NCBI RefSeq assembly: GCF_003018255.1
Contig: NZ_CP027440.1
Reading direction: 5' to 3' (one strand)
Length of the DNA stretch: 64,000 nucleotides
From: Escherichia coli
GTDB lineage: Bacteria; Pseudomonadota; Gammaproteobacteria; Enterobacterales; Enterobacteriaceae
The notes under the pieces are model-generated. The model saw nothing but the letters and a program-made list of their open reading frames with translations. It did not search any database and was not told the origin of the DNA. This document shows, one piece after another, positions 25,843-50,366 of the stretch (position 1 is the stretch's first letter; every line of letters begins with the position of its first letter). The position numbers and the translations under genes were made by a program.

Positions 25843-25854
25843 AAATCTACTCCA

Positions 25855-25889
25855 GAAAAAAGAGGGTAGCAGCGTTAACTGCTACCCTC
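25855..25889 (-). terminator. intrinsic terminator in the gltI-gltJ spacer (SroC 3' end)
   Basis: 11-bp stem gagggtagcag / ctgctaccctc (25862-25889), loop cgttaa, U6 on the minus strand (plus A-run 25856-25861) running into the gltJ SD. Confidence 0.8.
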
Positions 25890-26015
25890 GAAGATTGTTA
25901 CCCAGCGTATTGCGGTTTTCAGGCCCGATGGGGAACGACCACCAGGCGTATAGTCTGTCCGTGCTACGTAACAATCGAGAGGGCTGGAATTTCCGCCCCT
26001 GGTTCTTGTAATTAG
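25855..26015 (-). ncRNA. sroC: SroC sRNA region (processed from the gltI-gltJ spacer); ends approximate
   Basis: gltI-gltJ spacer ending in a minus-strand intrinsic terminator; SroC is known to derive from this spacer. Confidence 0.55.
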
Positions 26016-26920
26016 TTCAGTGCCTTGTCATTCGGTTCTTTGAACAGTGCTTTCATTTCGTCTGACAGTTCGAAATTCATGTTCAGGTTTTTCGGCGGAA
26101 TTGGATTTTTGAACCACTTATCAAACCATTTTTCCGCTTCACCGGAGGTCTGCACCTGAGCGATGGTATCATCCATCAGCTTTTTGAACTGCGGATCGTC
26201 TTTACGCAACATGCAACCATAGGCTTCCTGAGACTGCGGCTTGCCGACGATTTCCCAGTTGTCTGGTTTCTTCGCTTTCGCACGTTCACCGGCCAGCAGA
26301 GCATCATCCATCATAAAGGCAACGGCACGACCGCTTTCCAGGGTACGGAAAGAGTCACCGTGATCTTTGGCGCTGATGATGCGCATATTCATTTTTTGCT
26401 CTTCATTCAGTTTGTTGAGCAAAACTTCAGAGGTGGTGCCGGAAGTGACGACTACGGCTTTGCCTTTCAGGTCGGCAAAATCTTTGATATCGCCGCCCTT
26501 TTTGGTCAGCAGGCGCGTACCGACCACGAAAATAGTGTCAGAGAAAGCCGCCTGTTTTTGGCGTTCGGCATTGTTGGTGGTAGAACCGCATTCAAAATCG
26601 AAAGTGCCGTTTTGCAGCAGTGGAATACGGTTTTGTGAGGTGATCGGAATCAATTTCACCTGTAAGTCTGGTTTGTTGAGTTTCTTTTTCACTGCTTCAA
26701 CAATGGCGTTGGAGTAATCCTGCGAGTAGCCCACCACTTTTTGCTGATTGTCGTAATAAGAGAAAGGTACTGAAGATTCACGGTGACCGACGACAATCAC
26801 GCCGTTTTTGGCGATTTTGTCCAGCGTACTGCCTGCTGCCGGGGCGGCGTCATCTGCCTGTGCCAGTCCTGCGGAAAGCGCCAGGGCCAGGATTGCTGTG
26901 GCAGGTTTACGTAATTGCAT
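26012..26920 (-). CDS. gltI: glutamate/aspartate periplasmic binding protein GltI (302 aa)
   Basis: Track ORF is N-extended; known start MQLRKPATAILALALSAGLAQA at 26920 with SD AAGGAG. Confidence 0.93.
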   Translation of the reverse strand: MQLRKPATAILALALSAGLAQADDAAPAAGSTLDKIAKNGVIVVGHRESSVPFSYYDNQQKVVGYSQDYSNAIVEAVKKKLNKPDLQVKLIPITSQNRIPLLQNGTFDFECGSTTNNAERQKQAAFSDTIFVVGTRLLTKKGGDIKDFADLKGKAVVVTSGTTSEVLLNKLNEEQKMNMRIISAKDHGDSFRTLESGRAVAFMMDDALLAGERAKAKKPDNWEIVGKPQSQEAYGCMLRKDDPQFKKLMDDTIAQVQTSGEAEKWFDKWFKNPIPPKNLNMNFELSDEMKALFKEPNDKALN

Positions 26921-36416: not shown

Positions 36417-36491
36417 TGGCTGGGGTACGAGGATTCGAACCTCGGAATGCCGGAATCAGAATCCGGTGCCTTACCGCTTGGCGATACCCCA
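36417..36491 (-). tRNA. glnX: tRNA-Gln (anticodon CUG), 75 nt
   Basis: Full match to the tRNA-Gln cloverleaf with CCA end; anticodon loop UUCUGAU. Confidence 0.95.
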
Positions 36492-36528
36492 ACTGGGTGC
36501 ACTTACAAGGTAAGCGTCTTGAATAAAT

Positions 36529-36603
36529 TGGCTGGGGTACGAGGATTCGAACCTCGGAATGCCGGAATCAGAATCCGGTGCCTTACCGCTTGGCGATACC
36601 CCA
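36529..36603 (-). tRNA. glnV: tRNA-Gln (anticodon CUG), 75 nt
   Basis: Identical copy of the preceding tRNA-Gln(CUG). Confidence 0.95.
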
Positions 36604-36651
36604 ACAAATTGGTTTTTGAATTTGCCGAACATATTCGACACATTCAGAATT

Positions 36652-36728
36652 TGGTGGCTACGACGGGATTCGAACCTGTGACCCCATCATTATGAGTGAT
36701 GTGCTCTAACCAACTGAGCTACGTAGCC
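36652..36728 (-). tRNA. metU: tRNA-Met elongator (anticodon CAU), 77 nt
   Basis: Match to GGCUACGUAGCUCAGUUGGUUAGAGC...CCA, anticodon loop CUCAUAA. Confidence 0.95.
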
Positions 36729-36743
36729 AGATTGTTTCTTCGA

Positions 36744-36818
36744 TGGCTGGGGTACCTGGATTCGAACCAGGGAATGCCGGTATCAAAAACCGGTGCCTTA
36801 CCGCTTGGCGATACCCCA
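36744..36818 (-). tRNA. glnW: tRNA-Gln (anticodon UUG), 75 nt
   Basis: tRNA-Gln body with anticodon loop UUUUGAU. Confidence 0.95.
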
Positions 36819-36852
36819 ATAACCGGGCGGTGAACCGCTTATTCGAAGAATA

Positions 36853-36927
36853 TGGCTGGGGTACCTGGATTCGAACCAGGGAATGCCGGTATCAAAAACC
36901 GGTGCCTTACCGCTTGGCGATACCCCA
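36853..36927 (-). tRNA. glnU: tRNA-Gln (anticodon UUG), 75 nt
   Basis: Identical copy of the preceding tRNA-Gln(UUG). Confidence 0.95.
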
Positions 36928-36950
36928 TCCGTACAACGCTTTCTGGTGAA

Positions 36951-37035
36951 TGGTGCGGGAGGCGAGACTTGAACTCGCACACCTTGCGGCGCCAGAACCT
37001 AAATCTGGTGCGTCTACCAATTTCGCCACTCCCGC
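36951..37035 (-). tRNA. leuW: tRNA-Leu (anticodon UAG), 85 nt
   Basis: Long-variable-arm class II tRNA, anticodon loop AUUUAGG, CCA end. Confidence 0.95.
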
Positions 37036-37043
37036 AAAAAAGA

Positions 37044-37120
37044 TGGTGGCTACGACGGGATTCGAACCTGTGACCCCATCATTATGAGTGATGTGCTCTA
37101 ACCAACTGAGCTACGTAGCC
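37044..37120 (-). tRNA. metT: tRNA-Met elongator (anticodon CAU), 77 nt
   Basis: Identical to metU; first tRNA of the operon. Confidence 0.95.
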
Positions 37121-39420: not shown

Positions 39421-40173
39421 TCAGATAACGTCGATTTCAGCGACCGATGGGTAAATCCAACTTGGGCGGAACGGCATACTGTCGATATCGTCGAGTGACG
39501 AAACACCAGAAAGCACCAGAATCGTCTCCAGACCGGCCTGGAAGCCCGCCAGAATATCGGTACGCAAGTTATCGCCGACAATCACCGTTTCTTCCGAATG
39601 CGCCTGCATTTTGTTTAATGCCGCGCGGATGATCCACGGACTCGGCTTTCCAACATAGAACGGTTTGCGCCCGGAGATTTTCTCGATCCCTGCACACAAC
39701 GCGCCACAGGCGGGATAAAAACCGCGCCCGTGGGTGTCCGGGTTGGTGGCGATAAAGCGTGCGCCGTTAGCGACGAAATAGGCTGCTTTATGCATCATGT
39801 CCCAGTTGTAGGAACGCGTTTCGCCAACAATCACAAAATCAGGGTTCACATCGGTAATAGTGAAACCGGCTTTGTACAGTTCATGAATCAGTGCGCCTTC
39901 GCCCACCACATACGCTTTCTTGCCTTCCTGGCGACGCAGGAAATCGGCGGTCGCCATCGCGGAGGTATAAAACACGCTATCCGGTACATCGACACCGGCA
40001 GTGGCAAAGCGATTCGCCAGATCTTGCCCGGTCTGCGAAGGATAGTTGGTCAGCAACACCAGCGGCAGGCCTTTATCCATAATCCCGTGCAAAAATTCCG
40101 CTGCACCCGGTACGGCGACGTTATCGTGCATCAGCACGCCGTCGATATCGCAAATTACATTTTTAATGGTCAT
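39421..40173 (-). CDS. nagD: UMP phosphatase NagD/UmpH (250 aa)
   Basis: ORF track; HAD motif DIDGVL. Confidence 0.93.
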   Translation of the reverse strand: MTIKNVICDIDGVLMHDNVAVPGAAEFLHGIMDKGLPLVLLTNYPSQTGQDLANRFATAGVDVPDSVFYTSAMATADFLRRQEGKKAYVVGEGALIHELYKAGFTITDVNPDFVIVGETRSYNWDMMHKAAYFVANGARFIATNPDTHGRGFYPACGALCAGIEKISGRKPFYVGKPSPWIIRAALNKMQAHSEETVIVGDNLRTDILAGFQAGLETILVLSGVSSLDDIDSMPFRPSWIYPSVAEIDVI

Positions 40174-40220: not shown

Positions 40221-41441
40221 TTAATTTTCCAGCAAATGCTGGAGCAAAATACCGTTGAGCATGGCGCGTTTTACCAGCGCAAAAGCGCCGATTGCTGAGC
40301 GGTGATCCAACTCAGAACGTACCACCGGTAGATTAGTACGAAACGCCTTCAGCGCCTGGGTATTAATGCAGCTTTCAATAGCAGGGAGCAGCACTTTATC
40401 GGCTTCGGTGATTTCTCCAGCAATAACAATTTTTTGCGGATTAAATAAGTTGATAGCAATGGCGATGGTTTTACCCAGATGACGACCGACATATTCAATC
40501 ACTTCCGAGGCCAGGCTATCGCCTTTGTTCGCGGCTTTGCAGATAGTTTTGATGGTGCAGTCGTCCAGTGGCACACGGCTCTGGTAGCCCTGCTTTAACA
40601 GATTCAACACCCGTTGTTCAATGGCAGCATTGGCGGCGATAGTTTCCAGGCAGCCAAAGTTGCCGCAGTGGCAGCGTTCACCCAGCGGTTCGACCTGAAT
40701 ATGGCCAATTTCACCGACGTTGCCGTTGCGCCCGATAAAAATTCGCCCGTTAGAGATAATCCCGGCCCCGGTTCCGCGATGGACACGCACCAGAATGGAG
40801 TCTTCGCAATCCTGACTTGCACCGAAGTAGTGCTCTGCCAGCGCCAGACTGCGGATATCGTGGCCGACAAAACAGGTCACTTTAAAACGCTCTTCCAGTG
40901 CTTCAACCAGCCCCCAGTTTTCTACCTGAATATGCGGCATGTAATGAATTTTGCCGCTGTCCGGGTCTACAAGCCCTGGCAGGATCACCGAAATCGCGAT
41001 CAGCTCGCGTAGCTTGCGCTGGTAGCTATCAATAAACTGAGCAATGGCATTCAGCAGGGCATGTTCCAGCGTCTGCTGGGTACGTTCCGGCAGCGGGTAA
41101 TGTTCTTCTGCCAGCACTTTGCTGCTGAGATCAAACAAGGTGATGGTGGCGTCGTGACGACCAAGCCGTACGCCGATTGCGTGGAAATTGCGGGTTTCGG
41201 TGACGATGGAGATAGCGCGGCGGCCCCCGGTGGAGGCCTGCTGATCAACTTCTTTGATCAGCCCGCGTTCGATAAGCTGACGCGTAATTTTGGTTACGCT
41301 GGCGGGGGCAAGCTGACTTTGCTCGGCAATCTGAATCCGCGAGATTGGCCCGTACTGGTCAATCAGGCGATAAACCGCCGCGCTGTTAAGCTGTTTTACG
41401 AGATCAACATTACCTATCTGAGCTTGTCCGCCTGGTGTCAT
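40221..41441 (-). CDS. nagC: N-acetylglucosamine repressor NagC (406 aa)
   Basis: ORF track; ROK-family protein with N-terminal HTH. Confidence 0.95.
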   Translation of the reverse strand: MTPGGQAQIGNVDLVKQLNSAAVYRLIDQYGPISRIQIAEQSQLAPASVTKITRQLIERGLIKEVDQQASTGGRRAISIVTETRNFHAIGVRLGRHDATITLFDLSSKVLAEEHYPLPERTQQTLEHALLNAIAQFIDSYQRKLRELIAISVILPGLVDPDSGKIHYMPHIQVENWGLVEALEERFKVTCFVGHDIRSLALAEHYFGASQDCEDSILVRVHRGTGAGIISNGRIFIGRNGNVGEIGHIQVEPLGERCHCGNFGCLETIAANAAIEQRVLNLLKQGYQSRVPLDDCTIKTICKAANKGDSLASEVIEYVGRHLGKTIAIAINLFNPQKIVIAGEITEADKVLLPAIESCINTQALKAFRTNLPVVRSELDHRSAIGAFALVKRAMLNGILLQHLLEN

Positions 41442-41449
41442 ACTTTCTC

Positions 41450-43458
<2,009 letters not shown>

Positions 43459-43614
43459 TATTCACCTCAATAAGTAAAATGTAAGCCGTTGGCGGATTAG
43501 GCATCTTTAAGCGTAACCTGGATTTGCGCAGACAGGCGTCAATCCGACCTGATTTTTTGAATGATAAAATAAGTTTTCTGGTTTAGCCAGTAAAAGGGAG
43601 TGATGATAACGATA

Positions 43615-43636
43615 TTTGGTGACAAAACTCACAAAA
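43615..43636. promoter_or_regulatory. candidate CRP site in the nagB-nagE divergent control region
   Basis: GGTGA-caaaac-TCACA (43618-43633), 6-nt spacer. Confidence 0.5.
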
Positions 43637-43644
43637 GACACGCG

Positions 43645-43667
43645 TTTAATTTGCGATACGAATTAAA
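43645..43667. promoter_or_regulatory. candidate NagC operator (nagE-proximal)
   Basis: AT-rich 23-bp palindrome tttaatt-tgcgatacg-aattaaa, 124 bp upstream of the nagE ATG. Confidence 0.5.
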
Positions 43668-43790
43668 TTTTCACACACTCTGTAGCAGATGATCTAACAA
43701 TCTGATTACAGAACATCGGCAGTACAATTTGCAGCAAAATAAAAATACGGCTTTAAACGAGCCAAATAGGGTTCTCGTAGGGGGAATAAG

Positions 43791-45737
43791 ATGAATATTT
43801 TAGGTTTTTTCCAGCGACTAGGTAGGGCGTTACAGCTCCCTATCGCGGTGCTGCCGGTGGCGGCGCTGTTGCTGCGATTCGGTCAGCCAGATTTACTTAA
43901 CGTTGCGTTTATTGCCCAGGCGGGCGGTGCGATTTTTGATAACCTCGCATTAATCTTCGCCATCGGCGTGGCATCCAGCTGGTCGAAAGACAGCGCAGGT
44001 GCGGCGGCACTGGCGGGTGCGGTAGGTTACTTTGTGTTAACCAAAGCGATGGTGACCATCAACCCAGAAATTAACATGGGTGTACTGGCGGGTATCATTA
44101 CCGGTCTGGTCGGTGGTGCAGCCTATAACCGTTGGTCCGATATTAAACTGCCGGACTTCCTGAGCTTCTTCGGCGGCAAACGCTTTGTGCCGATTGCCAC
44201 CGGCTTCTTCTGCCTGGTGCTGGCGGCCATTTTTGGTTACGTCTGGCCGCCGGTACAGCACGCTATCCATGCAGGCGGCGAGTGGATCGTTTCTGCGGGC
44301 GCGCTGGGTTCCGGTATCTTTGGTTTCATCAACCGTCTGCTGATCCCAACCGGTCTGCATCAGGTACTGAACACCATCGCCTGGTTCCAGATTGGTGAAT
44401 TCACCAACGCGGCGGGTACGGTTTTCCACGGCGACATTAACCGCTTCTATGCCGGTGACGGCACCGCGGGGATGTTCATGTCCGGCTTCTTCCCGATCAT
44501 GATGTTCGGTCTGCCGGGTGCGGCGCTGGCGATGTACTTTGCAGCACCGAAAGAGCGTCGTCCGATGGTTGGCGGTATGCTGCTTTCTGTTGCTGTTACT
44601 GCGTTCCTGACCGGTGTGACTGAGCCGCTGGAATTCCTGTTCATGTTCCTTGCGCCGCTGCTGTACCTCCTGCACGCACTGCTGACCGGTATCAGCCTGT
44701 TTGTGGCAACGCTGCTGGGTATCCACGCGGGCTTCTCCTTCTCTGCGGGGGCTATCGACTACGCGTTGATGTATAACCTGCCGGCCGCCAGCCAGAACGT
44801 CTGGATGCTGCTGGTGATGGGTGTTGTCTTCTTCGCTATCTACTTCGTGGTGTTCAGTTTGGTTATCCGCATGTTCAACCTGAAAACGCCGGGCCGTGAA
44901 GATAAAGAAGACGAGATCGTTACTGAAGAAGCCAACAGCAACACGGAAGAAGGTCTCAATCAACTGGCAACCAACTATATTGCTGCGGTTGGCGGTACTG
45001 ACAACCTGAAAGCCATTGACGCCTGTATTACTCGTCTGCGCCTTACCGTGGTTGACTCAGCTCGCGTCAACGATGTGATGTGTAAACGTCTGGGGGCTTC
45101 TGGGGTAGTAAAACTGAACAAACAGACTATTCAGGTGATTGTGGGCGCGAAAGCAGAATCCATCGGCGATGCGATGAAGAAAGTCGTTGCCCGTGGTCCG
45201 GTAGCCGCTGCGTCAGCTGAAACTGCGCCTGCAACTGCCGCGCCTGTAGCAAAACCGCAGGCTGTACCAAACGCGGTGTCTATCGCGGAGCTGGTATCGC
45301 CGATTACCGGTGATGTTGTGGCACTGGATCAGGTTCCTGACGAAGCATTCGCCAGCAAAGCGGTGGGTGACGGTGTGGCGGTGAAACCGACAGATAAAAT
45401 CGTCGTATCACCAGCCGCAGGGACAATCGTGAAAATCTTCAACACCAACCACGCGTTCTGTCTGGAAACCGAAAAAGGCGCGGAGATCGTCGTCCATATG
45501 GGTATCGACACCGTAGCGCTGGAAGGTAAAGGCTTTAAACGTCTGGTGGAAGAGGGCGCGCAGGTAAGCGCAGGACAACCGATTCTGGAAATGGATCTGG
45601 ATTACCTGAACGCTAACGCCCGCTCGATGATTAGCCCGGTGGTTTGCAGCAATATCGACGATTTCAGCGGCCTGATCATTAAAGCTCAGGGCCATGTTGT
45701 GGCGGGTCAAACACCGCTGTATGAAATCAAAAAGTAA
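43791..45737 (+). CDS. nagE: PTS N-acetylglucosamine transporter EIICBA NagE (648 aa)
   Basis: ORF track; recognised sequence. Confidence 0.95.
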   Translation: MNILGFFQRLGRALQLPIAVLPVAALLLRFGQPDLLNVAFIAQAGGAIFDNLALIFAIGVASSWSKDSAGAAALAGAVGYFVLTKAMVTINPEINMGVLAGIITGLVGGAAYNRWSDIKLPDFLSFFGGKRFVPIATGFFCLVLAAIFGYVWPPVQHAIHAGGEWIVSAGALGSGIFGFINRLLIPTGLHQVLNTIAWFQIGEFTNAAGTVFHGDINRFYAGDGTAGMFMSGFFPIMMFGLPGAALAMYFAAPKERRPMVGGMLLSVAVTAFLTGVTEPLEFLFMFLAPLLYLLHALLTGISLFVATLLGIHAGFSFSAGAIDYALMYNLPAASQNVWMLLVMGVVFFAIYFVVFSLVIRMFNLKTPGREDKEDEIVTEEANSNTEEGLNQLATNYIAAVGGTDNLKAIDACITRLRLTVVDSARVNDVMCKRLGASGVVKLNKQTIQVIVGAKAESIGDAMKKVVARGPVAAASAETAPATAAPVAKPQAVPNAVSIAELVSPITGDVVALDQVPDEAFASKAVGDGVAVKPTDKIVVSPAAGTIVKIFNTNHAFCLETEKGAEIVVHMGIDTVALEGKGFKRLVEEGAQVSAGQPILEMDLDYLNANARSMISPVVCSNIDDFSGLIIKAQGHVVAGQTPLYEIKK

Positions 45738-45939: not shown

Positions 45940-47604
45940 ATGAGTGAGGCAGAAGCCCGCCCGACTAACTTTATTCGTCAGATCATCGATGAAGATCTGG
46001 CCAGTGGTAAGCACACCACAGTACACACCCGTTTCCCGCCGGAGCCGAATGGCTATCTGCATATTGGCCATGCGAAATCTATCTGCCTGAACTTCGGGAT
46101 CGCCCAGGACTATAAAGGCCAGTGCAACCTGCGTTTCGACGACACTAACCCGGTAAAAGAAGATATCGAGTATGTTGAGTCGATCAAAAACGACGTTGAG
46201 TGGTTAGGTTTTCACTGGTCTGGTAACGTCCGTTACTCCTCCGATTATTTTGATCAGCTCCACGCCTATGCGATCGAACTGATCAATAAAGGCCTGGCGT
46301 ACGTTGATGAACTGACACCGGAACAGATCCGCGAATACCGCGGCACCCTGACGCAGCCGGGTAAAAACAGCCCGTACCGCGACCGCAGCGTTGAAGAGAA
46401 CCTGGCGCTGTTCGAAAAAATGCGTACCGGTAGTTTTGAAGAAGGTAAAGCCTGCCTGCGTGCGAAAATCGACATGGCGTCGCCATTTATCGTAATGCGC
46501 GATCCGGTGCTGTACCGCATTAAATTTGCTGAACACCACCAGACTGGCAACAAGTGGTGCATCTACCCGATGTACGACTTCACCCACTGCATCAGCGATG
46601 CGCTGGAAGGTATTACGCACTCTCTGTGTACGCTTGAGTTCCAGGACAACCGCCGTCTGTACGACTGGGTACTGGACAACATCACCATTCCTGTTCACCC
46701 GCGCCAGTACGAATTCTCGCGCCTGAATCTGGAATACACTGTGATGTCCAAGCGTAAGCTGAACCTGCTGGTGACCGATAAGCACGTTGAAGGCTGGGAT
46801 GACCCGCGTATGCCGACCATTTCTGGTCTGCGTCGTCGTGGTTACACTGCGGCTTCTATTCGTGAGTTCTGCAAACGCATTGGTGTGACCAAGCAGGACA
46901 ACACCATTGAGATGGCGTCACTGGAATCCTGCATCCGTGAAGATCTCAACGAAAATGCCCCGCGCGCAATGGCGGTTATCGATCCGGTGAAACTGGTTAT
47001 CGAAAACTACCAGGGCGAAGGCGAAATGGTCACCATGCCGAACCATCCGAACAAACCGGAAATGGGTAGCCGTCAGGTGCCGTTTAGCTGTGAGATTTGG
47101 ATCGATCGCGCCGATTTCCGCGAAGAAGCTAACAAGCAGTACAAACGTCTGGTGTTGGGTAAAGAAGTGCGTCTGCGTAATGCTTACGTGATTAAGGCAG
47201 AACGCGTCGAGAAAGATGCCGAAGGTAATATCACCACCATCTTCTGTACTTATGACGCCGACACCTTAAGCAAAGATCCGGCAGATGGTCGTAAAGTGAA
47301 AGGTGTTATTCACTGGGTGAGCGCGGCACATGCGCTGCCGGTTGAAATCCGTTTGTATGACCGTCTGTTCAGCGTGCCTAACCCAGGTGCTGCGGATGAT
47401 TTCCTGTCGGTGATTAACCCGGAATCGCTGGTGATCAAACAGGGTTTCGCTGAACCGTCGCTGAAAGACGCGGTAGCGGGTAAAGCATTCCAGTTTGAGC
47501 GTGAAGGTTATTTCTGCCTCGACAGCCGCCATTCCACTGCCGAAAAACCGGTATTTAACCGCACCGTAGGGCTGCGTGATACCTGGGCGAAAGTAGGCGA
47601 GTAG
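45940..47604 (+). CDS. glnS: glutaminyl-tRNA synthetase GlnS (554 aa)
   Basis: ORF track; HIGH motif (PNGYLHIGH) and VMSKR. Confidence 0.96.
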
Positions 47605-47699: not shown

Positions 47700-48033
47700 C
47701 TGCTTTTCTTCGCGAATTAATTCCGCTTCGCAATTTATCCATAAAACAAATTTAAAATCACAAACCATAATTAAATAAAATGTAACCGTTTTCATCTTAC
47801 TGGAAATTCACGCTTTTATTCTTCTGCAAGCCTTTCAACTGCAAACTTAAGCCTTGTAACAAAAATCATCAAAATATGTGCGGTTGCTCATGTTCTTACA
47901 TTCTGGTTACAGAAAGAGATTGATAATTCGCGTCGCGAAAAATAGTCTGTTCCTGTAGTCAGCGAGACTTTTCTCAACGCTACTTTTTTAATTTTTATTT
48001 TTTTCGCTGTTCACCTTTGGTGCAGCAATTTAT

Positions 48034-48053: not shown

Positions 48054-49460
48054 ATGCGTACGTTTAGTGGCAAACGTAGTACGCTGGCGCTGGCTATCGC
48101 CGGTGTTACAGCAATGTCGGGCTTTATGGCAATGCCGGAGGCTCGCGCCGAAGGATTCATCGACGATTCAACCTTAACCGGCGGTATCTATTACTGGCAG
48201 CGTGAACGCGACCGTAAAGATGTTACCGACGGCGACAAATACAAAACCAACCTTTCTCACTCCACCTGGAATGCCAACCTCGATTTTCAGTCCGGTTATG
48301 CTGCTGATATGTTCGGCCTTGATATTGCTGCGTTTACGGCGATTGAAATGGCGGAAAACGGTGACAGCTCTCACCCGAACGAAATCGCGTTTTCAAAAAG
48401 CAATAAAGCCTATGACGAAGACTGGTCCGGCGACAAAAGCGGTATAAGCCTGTATAAAGCAGCGGCCAAATTTAAATACGGTCCGGTGTGGGCGAGGGCA
48501 GGTTACATTCAGCCAACTGGTCAGACGCTGTTAGCGCCGCACTGGAGCTTTATGCCGGGTACTTATCAGGGGGCGGAAGCCGGGGCGAATTTTGATTACG
48601 GCGATGCTGGTGCGTTGAGTTTCTCCTACATGTGGACCAACGAATACAAAGCACCGTGGCATCTCGAAATGGATGAGTTTTATCAGAACGATAAAACTAC
48701 CAAAGTTGATTATCTGCACTCCATCGGTGCGAAGTACGACTTCAAAAATAACTTTGTACTGGAAGCGGCATTTGGTCAGGCGGAAGGGTATATAGATCAA
48801 TATTTTGCCAAAGCCAGCTACAAATTTGATATCGCCGGTAGCCCGTTAACCACCAGCTACCAGTTCTACGGTACGCGCGATAAAGTTGACGATCGCAGCG
48901 TCAACGACATTTACGACGGCACTGCCTGGCTGCAAGCGTTGACCTTTGGTTACCGGGCGGCTGATGTAGTGGATTTGCGTCTGGAAGGCACCTGGGTTAA
49001 AGCCGACGGTCAGCAGGGATACTTCCTGCAACGTATGACTCCAACCTACGCTTCCTCGAACGGTCGCCTGGATATCTGGTGGGATAACCGTTCTGACTTC
49101 AACGCCAACGGCGAAAAAGCGGTCTTCTTCGGTGCGATGTATGACCTGAAAAACTGGAATCTTCCAGGCTTCGCCATCGGCGCTTCCTACGTTTACGCAT
49201 GGGATGCTAAACCTGCGACCTGGCAGAGCAATCCGGATGCGTACTACGACAAAAACCGGACTATTGAAGAGTCTGCCTACAGCCTGGATGCGGTGTACAC
49301 CATTCAGGACGGTCGCGCCAAAGGCACGATGTTCAAACTGCACTTCACCGAATACGACAACCACTCCGACATCCCAAGCTGGGGCGGCGGTTACGGTAAC
49401 ATCTTCCAGGATGAGCGCGACGTGAAATTTATGGTAATCGCACCATTCACCATCTTCTGA
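48054..49460 (+). CDS. chiP: chitoporin ChiP/YbfM (468 aa)
   Basis: ORF track; signal peptide, OprD-like outer-membrane porin. Confidence 0.93.
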
Positions 49461-49509: not shown

Positions 49510-49836
49510 ATGAAAAAACTGATTCTCATCGCCATGATGGCATCGGGGCTGGTAGCTTGTGCGCAATCAACCGCACCGCAGGAAGACAGTCGTCTGAAAG
49601 AGGCTTACAGCGCCTGTATCAACACCGCGCAAGGTTCGCCGGAAAAAATTGAAGCCTGCCAGAGCGTGTTAAACGTGCTGAAGAAAGAGAAACAACATCA
49701 GCAGTTTGCCGAGCAGGAAAGTGTCCGCGTACTGGATTATCAGCAGTGTATTCAGGCAACGCAAACCGGAAATGATCAGGCGGTGAAAGCCGATTGTGAT
49801 AAGGTCTGGCAGGAAATTCGCAGTAATAACAAATAA
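49510..49836 (+). CDS. chiQ: lipoprotein ChiQ/YbfN (108 aa)
   Basis: ORF track; lipobox LVAC. Confidence 0.9.
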   Translation: MKKLILIAMMASGLVACAQSTAPQEDSRLKEAYSACINTAQGSPEKIEACQSVLNVLKKEKQHQQFAEQESVRVLDYQQCIQATQTGNDQAVKADCDKVWQEIRSNNK

Positions 49837-49876
49837 GTGAGAGCTGTAACTCTCGCTTTTCTTATTTCCCTTGTAT

Positions 49877-49904
49877 AAAAAAGCCAACCTGCAGGTTGGC
49901 TTTT
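49877..49904. terminator. intrinsic terminator between convergent chiQ and fur
   Basis: Perfect 20-nt palindrome agccaacctgcaggttggct (49882-49901) flanked by an A-run and a T-run. Confidence 0.8.
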
Positions 49905-49919: not shown

Positions 49920-50366
49920 TTATTTGCCTTCGTGCGCGTGCTCATCTTCGCGGCAATCGCCTTCGGCACAGTGACCGTAAAGATAGAGACTGTGGTTAGT
50001 CAGGCGAATGCCATGTTTTGCGGCGATTTCACGCTGACGCGCTTCGATGGAATCATCACTAAATTCGATAACCTTGCCGCAGTCGAGGCAGATCAGGTGA
50101 TCGTGGTGATGTTGCTGTGTCAGTTCAAATACGGATTTACCGCCTTCAAAATTGTGGCGGGTGACGATACCAGCATCGTCAAACTGGTTCAGTACGCGAT
50201 ATACCGTAGCCAGACCAATTTCTTCACCCATATCGATCAGACGTTTGTATAAATCTTCCGCACTGACGTGATGGTTGTCCGGCTCCTGAAGAACTTCCAG
50301 GATTTTTAAACGAGGAAGCGTTACTTTCAGGCCAGCTTTCTTTAGGGCGGTATTGTTATCAGTCAT
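49920..50366 (-). CDS. fur: ferric uptake regulator Fur (148 aa)
   Basis: ORF track; MTDNNTALKKAGLKVTLPRLKILEVL. Confidence 0.97.
   Translation of the reverse strand: MTDNNTALKKAGLKVTLPRLKILEVLQEPDNHHVSAEDLYKRLIDMGEEIGLATVYRVLNQFDDAGIVTRHNFEGGKSVFELTQQHHHDHLICLDCGKVIEFSDDSIEARQREIAAKHGIRLTNHSLYLYGHCAEGDCREDEHAHEGK

What the first reader, a model, noticed from the sequence alone, without database searches (positions are those of the whole stretch)
43459..43790. nagB-nagE divergent control region: NagC-type operator palindrome and CRP site
The 332-bp spacer contains an AT-rich 23-bp palindrome tttaatt-tgcgatacg-aattaaa (43645-43667) of the NagC operator type and, 12 bp away, a CRP-like site GGTGA-N6-TCACA (43618-43633). 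This matches the known architecture in which NagC operators flank a central CRP site and repress both promoters by looping. The second, nagB-proximal operator is expected near 43540-43580 but is not confidently placed.
Basis: partly seen in the sequence, partly recalled or inferred. Interest (0 to 1): 0.35.

Follow-up and report, generated by a model that had tools for sequence, protein, structure and literature searches.

The report
Known E. coli nagE-nagB control region

Summary
The window is E. coli chromosome. The 332-bp spacer 43459-43790 lies between nagB (minus strand, followed by nagA, nagC and nagD) and nagE (plus strand). A NagC matrix built only from sites outside this window ranks these two sites 2nd and 3rd of 63,978 positions. 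The CRP-like site at 43618-43633 (22-mer 43615-43636) is real. Its core alone is not significant across the whole window. However, in 52 of 59 related species it sits exactly 30.5 bp from the nagE operator, its GTGA/TCAC cores are nearly invariant, and published start sites place it at -61.5 (nagE) and -72.5 (nagB). The two operators are 93-94 bp apart in 57 of 59 species, about nine helical turns, which fits the published NagC loop. K-12 differs at two spacer bases only, both outside the sites. Verdict: observation confirmed, interpretation supported, already known, low interest. Side observation: the membrane domain of nagE occurs in two forms about 45% identical downstream of the same control module.

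The parts
43459..43790 (.). nagB-nagE divergent intergenic control region (332 bp)
   Evidence: ORF coordinates, sequence, annotated nagB/nagE in E. coli genomes. Differs from K-12 MG1655 at 43605 and 43754 only.
43551..43573 (-). NagC operator O_B (nagB-proximal, strong): CTTATTTTATCATTCAAAAAATC on the minus strand. Centre 43562 = -9 of the nagB promoter; spans -20 to +3.
   Evidence: Exact match to the nagB site in the FITBAR table of known NagC operators. 14.1 bits, rank 3 of 63,978 with an independent matrix. TT/AA at +-5,6 invariant in 40 species. C/G at both +-11 positions in 50 of 57 species.
43615..43636 (.). cAMP-CRP site TTTGGTGACAAAACTCACAAAA (core 43618-43633). Centre 43625.5 = -61.5 for nagE and -72.5 for nagB.
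   Evidence: Core has 1 mismatch. It is the only core with 2 or fewer mismatches in the spacer. It lies 30.5 bp from O_E in 52 of 59 species. The GTGA/TCAC columns carry 1.98 bits against 0.74 for the N6 spacer. nagB and nagE are CRP genomic-SELEX targets.
43645..43667 (+). NagC operator O_E (nagE-proximal, weak/hybrid): TTTAATTTGCGATACGAATTAAA. Centre 43656 = -31 of the nagE promoter; spans -42 to -20.
   Evidence: Exact match to the published nagE operator. Perfect 7-nt arms. 17.3 bits, rank 2. A/T at both +-11 positions in 57 of 57 species. Described as dependent on looping to the nagB operator.
43651..43656 (+). nagE promoter -35 element TTGCGA (inside O_E)
   Evidence: Inferred: 17-nt spacer to CACACT, and position -36..-31 relative to the Cappable-seq start at 43687. 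Columns nearly invariant, although that could be due to the operator alone.
43674..43679 (+). nagE promoter -10 element CACACT
   Evidence: Inferred: -13..-8 relative to the start at 43687. ACACTC is invariant among E. coli, Enterobacter and Serratia.
43687..43687 (+). nagE transcription start
   Evidence: Cappable-seq TSS at U00096.2 703063, plus strand. Mapped with offset 659376, derived from nagB coordinates and verified by the exact match of published upstream strings.
43584..43589 (-). nagB promoter -35 element TGGCTA
   Evidence: Inferred: 17-nt spacer to TATCAT. Its T, G, C and A columns form a small conserved island.
43561..43566 (-). nagB promoter -10 element TATCAT (inside O_B)
   Evidence: 5 of 6 match to TATAAT, at -13..-8 relative to the mapped start.
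43553..43553 (-). nagB transcription start (main)
   Evidence: Kim et al. 2012 TSS table: NC_000913.2 position 702929, minus strand, 95-nt leader. Its 51-nt upstream string equals the reverse complement of window 43553-43603.
40221..41441 (-). nagC, the repressor that binds O_E and O_B, encoded in the regulated nagBACD operon
   Evidence: NF047937 TransRegNagC equivalog, 719 bits against a cut-off of 650.
42658..43458 (-). nagB (glucosamine-6-phosphate deaminase), first gene of nagBACD
   Evidence: NF001685 equivalog, 627 bits against a cut-off of 513.
43791..45737 (+). nagE (GlcNAc-specific PTS EIICBA)
   Evidence: NF007608 equivalog, 1446 bits against a cut-off of 1010.

Best explanation
This is the nagE-nagBACD divergent control region of E. 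coli. Without N-acetylglucosamine, NagC (encoded by the third gene of the same operon) binds the strong operator O_B (43551-43573), which covers the nagB -10 element and start point. It also binds the weak operator O_E (43645-43667), which covers the nagE -35 element. The operator centres are 94 bp apart, about nine helical turns, so both lie on the same face of the DNA. NagC molecules bound at the two sites interact, loop out the intervening DNA and block both promoters. O_E on its own is too weak to repress, because it has A/T pairs at +-11. The inducer GlcNAc-6-phosphate releases NagC. A single cAMP-CRP dimer bound at 43615-43636, inside the loop, then activates both weak promoters from class I positions: -61.5 for nagE and -72.5 for nagB. 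Shown here: sequence identity of both operators to published sites, their statistical rank, conservation of the sites and their spacing, and the positions of the sites relative to published start points. Taken from the literature: NagC and CRP binding, the need for looping, the inducer, and the stronger CRP dependence of nagE. Inferred: the -35 and -10 assignments and the class I mechanism.
For: Gene identities. Both operators are letter-identical to the published NagC operators. They rank 2 and 3 of 63,978 positions with a matrix trained only on sites from elsewhere; rank 1 is the validated chiP operator. PMC4288165 states that TT/AA at +-5,6 is invariant in NagC/Mlc sites, that the nagE operator has A/T at +-11, and that it relies on cooperative binding with the strong nagB operator through a DNA loop. 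K-12 differs at only 2 of 332 spacer positions, both outside the sites. In 59 species with divergent nagB-nagE, operator spacing is 93/94 bp in 57 (sd 0.36), while distances to the start codons vary (sd 34 and 19). The CRP core is 30.5 bp from O_E in 52 of the 59. Information content peaks on O_B (1.56 bits per column), CRP (1.39; cores 1.98) and O_E (1.63), against 0.2-0.7 in the flanks. Published starts lie at window 43553 (nagB) and 43687 (nagE). CRP activation is stronger for nagE, matching the weaker nagE hexamers (7 of 12 against 8 of 12). CRP genomic SELEX recovered nagB and nagE.
Against: No binding or expression data exist for this strain. The primary footprinting papers (Plumbridge & Kolb 1991, 1993, 1998; Plumbridge 2001) are not held, so the exact CAP footprint could not be read and rests on conservation, position and my recollection. 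The CRP core alone is not enriched window-wide. The nagE start is a low-signal Cappable-seq peak from non-inducing conditions, and Kim et al. did not detect it. A simple sigma-70 scan did not call either promoter. Looping cannot be demonstrated by computation. Part of the spacing conservation among close relatives reflects shared ancestry.
Confidence: 0.95

Rival explanations
1. The 43645-43667 palindrome is mainly an Mlc operator, so glucose signalling through Mlc rather than GlcNAc signalling through NagC controls nagE.
For: [quoted passage not shown] This A/T state is conserved in 57 of 57 species.
Against: PMC4288165 reports no cross-regulation between the two regulons at physiological protein levels. 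It also reports that the nagE operator, when the nagB operator is present, is preferentially regulated by NagC. The partner site O_B has the NagC-type C/G at +-11. nagC is encoded in the regulated operon.
Confidence: 0.03
2. The motifs are chance features of an AT-rich spacer and have no regulatory role.
For: The spacer is 62% A+T. The CRP core is not enriched window-wide. A fourth NagC-like hit elsewhere in the window is compatible with chance.
Against: The operators are exactly identical to published ones. P = 0.0002 for two such sites in AT-rich null sequences. There is a sharp conservation footprint and indel-free spacing across three orders of bacteria. The sites are correctly positioned relative to mapped start points.
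Confidence: 0.01
3. The GGTGA-N6-TCACA element is bound by a regulator other than CRP, such as another CRP/FNR-family protein, or serves only as a bend that helps the loop, with no activating role.
For: The left core is never the consensus T in 52 species (G in 44, A in 8), a conserved departure from the ideal CRP site. The position inside the loop is phase-locked to O_E.
Against: The core matches CRP at 9 of 10 positions, not the FNR pattern TTGAT-N4-ATCAA. The centre lies at classic class I distances from both mapped starts. CRP genomic SELEX and the literature report CRP binding and activation here. A structural role in the loop is compatible with the main explanation and adds to it.
Confidence: 0.02

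Closest known systems
E. coli K-12 nagE-nagBACD regulatory region (Plumbridge & Kolb 1991, 1993, 1998; Plumbridge 2001)
   Same: It is the same locus. 330 of 332 spacer bases are identical, and both NagC operators, the CRP site and both promoters are identical.
   Different: There are two SNPs (43605 G against A, 43754 T against G), both outside all sites. The strain background matches E. coli 536 and other non-K-12 strains.
Other NagC-controlled promoters with paired operators: glmUS, chbBCARFG, fimB (and manXYZ, which has NagC and Mlc sites)
   Same: [quoted passage not shown]
   Different: Operator distances and outcomes differ. NagC activates glmUS. chb needs ChbR as well, according to the title cited. 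Here the two operators each sit on one of two divergent promoters.
araC-araBAD divergent region and the gal operon (GalR O_E/O_I loop); comparison from my own knowledge
   Same: Repression works by a protein-bridged DNA loop between two phased operators, with a cAMP-CRP site in the control region.
   Different: The repressor families differ (AraC and LacI/GalR against the ROK family). The gal loop needs HU and encloses the promoters. The ara loop uses a distant O2 site. Here one CRP dimer serves both promoters from within a 94-bp loop.
Mlc operators (ptsG, ptsHI, manXYZ, malT, mlc)
   Same: The sequence logo is almost indistinguishable, and A/T at +-11 is present as in O_E.
   Different: Mlc does not regulate nagE at physiological levels, and O_E works with the NagC-type O_B.

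Membership tests
NagC operator | 23-bp quasi-palindrome with invariant TT at -6,-5 and AA at +5,+6 | tested here: met
   O_E: T43650 T43651 / A43661 A43662. O_B: the same pattern around centre 43562. These four columns are invariant (2.0 bits) in 40 species for both sites.
NagC operator | Sequence identity to an experimentally defined NagC site | tested here: met
   Both sites are exact matches to the nagE and nagB entries in the FITBAR table of known NagC operators.
NagC operator | High score with a NagC matrix not trained on the site itself | tested here: met
   Ranks 2 and 3 of 63,978 window positions. P = 0.0002 for the pair in AT-rich null sequences.
NagC operator | C or G at +-11 (feature of high-affinity, NagC-specific sites) | tested here: met
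   Met for O_B (C at both ends of CTTATTTTATCATTCAAAAAATC). Not met for O_E (T and A), which is the published reason O_E is weak and loop-dependent. This feature defines strength and specificity, not membership.
NagC operator | Cognate NagC regulator encoded in the genome | tested here: met
   nagC at 40221-41441 passes the TransRegNagC equivalog model (719 bits against 650).
NagC operator | Physical binding of NagC to these sites in this strain | not testable with these tools
   Needs EMSA, footprinting or ChIP. The literature reports nagE-nagB used as a positive control for NagC footprints and EMSA in EHEC.
Loop-repressed divergent nag control region | Two operators on the same face of the helix, an integral number of turns apart | tested here: met
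   Centres are 94 bp apart, which is 8.95-9.04 turns. Spacing is 93/94 bp in 57 of 59 species while the flanking lengths vary.
Loop-repressed divergent nag control region | Each operator overlaps a core promoter element | tested here: met
   O_E spans -42..-20 of the nagE start at 43687. O_B spans -20..+3 of the nagB start at 43553. Arithmetic. The hexamer assignments are inferred.
Loop-repressed divergent nag control region | Repression requires both operators and correct phasing | not testable with these tools
   Stated in the literature (and the titles cited). Needs spacing-mutant reporter assays.
Class I cAMP-CRP activator site | TGTGA-N6-TCACA core | tested here: met
   9 of 10 core positions match. 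It is the only such core in the spacer.
Class I cAMP-CRP activator site | Centre near -61.5, -71.5/-72.5, -82.5 or -92.5 from the start point | tested here: met
   -61.5 from the nagE start at 43687 and -72.5 from the nagB start at 43553. Each start rests on one high-throughput dataset.
Class I cAMP-CRP activator site | Half-sites conserved and the N6 spacer free to vary | tested here: met
   1.98 bits on GTGA/TCAC against 0.74 bits on N6 across 40 species.
Class I cAMP-CRP activator site | CRP binding and CRP-dependent activation | not testable with these tools
   Literature only: genomic SELEX recovered nagB and nagE, and CRP activates both, nagE more strongly.

The most novel reading that the evidence does not exclude
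The O_B-CRP-O_E unit is a rigid module. The 93-94 bp and 30.5 bp spacings have no indels, and the strong nagB / weak nagE operator asymmetry is kept in 50-57 of 57 species across Enterobacterales, Vibrionaceae and Aeromonas. The module has stayed fixed while the gene segment just downstream of the nagE -10 element (the leader plus the IIC membrane domain of NagE) exists in two forms about 45% identical. The E. coli K-12 form is the minority, patchily distributed one. I found neither point in the literature held here, but both may already be described in comparative-genomics work I could not reach.
Probability: 0.25. Interest if true: 0.3.

Novelty: already known. Interest (0 to 1): 0.08.

Why it matters
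It matters little as a discovery. This is one of the classic examples of repression by DNA looping combined with CRP activation at divergent promoters, and the window carries the K-12 sites unchanged. The check is useful mainly as validation. It shows that all published K-12 results carry over to this strain. The cross-species result gives quantitative support to the view that loop geometry and the dependence of nagE repression on the nagB operator are under selection. That result is invariant spacing, a conserved strong/weak operator pair and a phase-locked CRP site.

Tried and rejected
(1) I tried to read the primary papers (PMC29661, PMC2446801, PMC147383, PMC177988). None is held, so the exact CAP footprint could not be quoted.

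(2) A full-text search for the CRP-site string found only unrelated antibody and vector papers. One SELEX-term search was wasted, and one call failed on term length.

(3) The consensus sigma-70 scan found neither real promoter, because both fall below its 9-of-12 threshold. The single site it did call (minus strand, 43485 to 43457) has no support from TSS data, so I rejected it.

(4) The CRP core pattern is not significant window-wide, so I relied on position and conservation instead.

(5) I looked for a second CRP site, because Shimada et al. mention multiple sites. The next best core has 3 mismatches and overlaps O_E, so I rejected it.

(6) The fourth-ranked NagC-like hit at 49861-49883 is compatible with chance, with 0.79 expected per 64 kb.

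(7) My first extraction of nagE starts across species picked what looked like spurious low-identity alignments. Re-selecting by bit score gave the same values, and inspecting L002 showed that the low identity is a real second form of nagE.

(8) The Cappable-seq minus-strand list was truncated in storage, so it gave no second confirmation of the nagB start.

(9) The alternative nagE segment was not found in any complete E. coli genome.

(10) My first guess at K-12 coordinates was wrong, and I corrected it.

Full report
**Locus**

The 651 bases around the finding are 100% identical to many E. coli chromosomes, for example strain 536. They occur in 5,424 of 5,426 complete E. coli genomes, where they are annotated nagB/nagE. 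The ORFs on either side pass NCBIfam equivalog cut-offs:
- NagB, 42658-43458, minus strand
- NagA, 41450-42598, minus strand
- NagC, 40221-41441, minus strand
- NagD-type HAD hydrolase, 39421-40173, minus strand
- NagE, 43791-45737, plus strand
- GlnS, 45940-47604, plus strand

K-12 MG1655 differs from the window at two spacer positions only, 43605 and 43754.

**Observation**

The palindrome is at the stated coordinates. Its arms, TTTAATT and AATTAAA, are 100% complementary with 9 nt between them, at 43645-43667. GGTGA-N6-TCACA is at 43618-43633, with one mismatch to the CRP core. Eleven bases separate the two motifs.

**NagC operators**

The FITBAR paper (PMC3098098, Table 1) lists known NagC operators compiled from El Qaidi & Plumbridge 2008 and a personal communication from J. 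Plumbridge.
- Its nagE entry, TTTAATTTGCGATACGAATTAAA, equals window 43645-43667.

To avoid circularity I built a symmetrised matrix from the seven listed sites that lie outside this window. The top three of 63,978 window positions were:
- the chiP (ybfM) operator at 47922-47944, 20.7 bits
- O_E, 17.3 bits
- O_B, 14.1 bits

In 5,000 AT-rich 332-bp null sequences, two sites this good occurred with frequency 0.0002.

PMC4288165 states that TT/AA at +-5,6 are the only totally conserved operator positions. It also states that strong NagC sites have C/G at +-11, and that the wild-type nagE operator has A/T there. [quoted passage not shown] The window sequence shows all of this: TT/AA at +-5,6 in both sites, T and A at +-11 of O_E, and C and C at +-11 of O_B.

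**CRP site**

The core alone is not significant window-wide: 2 matches with at most 1 mismatch against 1.73 expected. Only about 0.009 would be expected in 332 bp, and no other core in the spacer has fewer than 3 mismatches. The literature held here says cAMP-CRP activates the nag operons, nagE more than nagB. It also lists nagB and nagE among known CRP targets recovered by genomic SELEX. The papers with the CAP footprint are not held, so the exact placement rests on the next two lines of evidence.

**Cross-species footprint**

A scan of one genome per species with NagB returned 80 loci. A nagE-like gene lies divergently within 700 bp in 59 of them. The loci include Enterobacterales, Vibrionaceae, Aeromonas and others.
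- The two best NagC-matrix hits are 94 bp apart in 48 loci and 93 bp apart in 9 (sd 0.36).
- By contrast, the distances from the operators to the start codons vary with sd 34 and 19 bp.
- The best CRP core is centred 30.5 bp from the nagE-side operator in 52 of 59 loci, and 62.5-63.5 bp from the nagB-side operator in 55 of 59.

Forty slices under 85% pairwise identity were aligned without gaps on the O_E centre, and information content was measured per column:
- O_B: 1.56 bits
- the CRP 22-mer: 1.39 bits, with 1.98 on GTGA/TCAC and 0.74 on the N6 spacer
- O_E: 1.63 bits
- between the sites: 0.48-0.67 bits
- outside the sites: 0.19-0.32 bits

The strong/weak asymmetry is conserved as well. O_E has A/T at both +-11 positions in 57 of 57 loci, and O_B has C/G at both in 50 of 57. 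The exceptions to the geometry are L059 (Bisgaardia) and L070 (Moritella). In three Aeromonas loci the best core falls elsewhere.

**Promoters**

From the sequence I predicted two promoters:
- nagE: -35 TTGCGA (43651-43656), 17 nt, -10 CACACT (43674-43679)
- nagB, minus strand: -35 TGGCTA (43589 to 43584), 17 nt, -10 TATCAT (43566 to 43561)

Published genome-wide data agree with both.
- Kim et al. 2012 (PMC3415461, supplementary file 2) list a nagB start at NC_000913.2 position 702929. Its 51-nt upstream string is the reverse complement of window 43553-43603.
- Ettwiller et al. 2016 (PMC4782308, supplementary file 1) list a plus-strand start at U00096.2 position 703063, which is window 43687.

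These starts give the following positions:
- CRP centre (43625.5): -61.5 for nagE and -72.5 for nagB, both class I distances
- O_E: -42 to -20 of nagE, overlapping the -35 element
- O_B: -20 to +3 of nagB, overlapping the -10 element and the start

In helical turns, 94 bp is 8.95-9.04, 30.5 bp is 2.9 and 63.5 bp is 6.05-6.1. The three proteins therefore bind roughly the same face of the DNA. The hexamers match the consensus at 7 of 12 positions for nagE and 8 of 12 for nagB. This explains why the simple scan missed them and fits the stronger CRP dependence of nagE.

**Mechanism**

NagC bound at O_B and O_E loops out 94 bp of DNA, which contains the CRP site, and blocks both promoters. GlcNAc-6-P releases NagC. 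cAMP-CRP then activates both promoters from class I positions.
- Shown here: site identities, statistics, conservation, and positions relative to published start points.
- From the literature: binding, the need for looping, the inducer, and CRP activation.
- Inferred: the hexamer assignments and the class I mechanism.
- From my own recollection, not verified here: Plumbridge & Kolb reported that CAP stabilises the loop and that the region is intrinsically bent at the CAP site. The phase-locked CRP position found here is consistent with that.

**Rivals**

An Mlc-centred reading, a chance reading and a non-CRP reading of the central site are each contradicted by the evidence above. Together I give them about 5%.

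**Novelty**

This is already known. It is the textbook nagE-B control region, and the sites are identical to those of K-12.

**Side observations**

The main side observation concerns nagE itself. In 46 of the 57 loci with canonical geometry, the divergent gene's N-terminal (IIC membrane) domain is only about 45% identical to the window's NagE, while its C-terminal part is 50-90% identical to both forms. Homology to the window breaks exactly at 43680, between the nagE -10 element and the start, and resumes inside nagE at 44484-44976. The alternative protein still passes the GlcNAc-specific IIBC model TIGR01998. The alternative form is the widespread one. The K-12 form is patchy: E. coli, E. albertii, Citrobacter, E. 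cloacae, Kluyvera, Rahnella bruchi and Budvicia have it, but E. asburiae does not. No complete E. coli genome carries the alternative segment. The remaining side observations are listed separately.

Noticed in passing
window 43680 to about 44484-44976 (nagE leader and IIC domain); loci L002, L007 and 44 others: The N-terminal membrane (IIC) domain of NagE exists in two forms about 45% identical, downstream of the same NagC/CRP control module. Homology breaks exactly at 43680, between the nagE -10 element and the start, and resumes inside nagE. The non-K-12 form is the widespread one (46 of 57 species). The K-12 form is patchy and is 85-99% identical even in Rahnella and Budvicia, where NagB is only 80-84% identical. 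No complete E. coli genome has the alternative segment.
   Followed up: partly
window 47922-47944: GATAATTCGCGTCGCGAAAAATA upstream of the 468-aa ORF at 48054-49460 is the published NagC operator of ybfM/chiP. It is the best NagC-matrix hit in the window at 20.7 bits.
   Followed up: partly
window 49861-49883: The fourth-ranked NagC-like site, CTTATTTCCCTTGTATAAAAAAG (13.8 bits, TT/AA at +-5,6, C/G at +-11), lies between the convergent 3' ends of the ORFs at 49510-49836 (+) and 49920-50366 (-), next to a terminator-like hairpin. I take these ORFs to be chiQ and fur, from my own knowledge. The null model expects 0.79 such hits per 64 kb, so the hit is compatible with chance.
   Followed up: partly
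window 43502 (-) and 43708 (+): Published TSS tables list a second nagB 5' end at 43502 (15 reads, 44-nt leader) and a weak second plus-strand start at 43708. Neither has a convincing -35/-10 pair at the right distance, so they may be processing sites or minor promoters.
   Followed up: no
window 43618; 52 related loci: The first base of the left CRP half-site is never the consensus T (G in 44 loci, A in 8). This is a conserved departure from the ideal CRP site, which may keep CRP affinity sub-maximal.
   Followed up: no
window 43748-43764: A small hairpin, GGCT-TTAAACG-AGCC, lies in the nagE leader. The scan called it terminator-like on the minus strand. One of the two K-12/window SNPs (43754) falls in its loop. 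It is not obviously conserved in the alternative leader.
   Followed up: no
window 43629-43656: An imperfect 17-nt palindrome (76% complementary) centred on ACGCGT bridges the right CRP half-site and the left arm of O_E. Conservation at 43637-43644 is low (0.48 bits), so it is probably chance.
   Followed up: partly
window 25854-26016 (-), 4602-5050 (+), 36420-37120 (-): Rfam gathering-threshold matches: the sRNA sroC, a cspA-type thermoregulator leader, and a cluster of seven tRNA genes.
   Followed up: no
literature (PMC4288165) against window 43645 and 43667: The paper describes the nagE operator as '-11A,+11T'. The sequence reads T at -11 and A at +11 on either strand. This is a strand-naming discrepancy only, since the base pairs are A/T in both cases.
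   Followed up: yes
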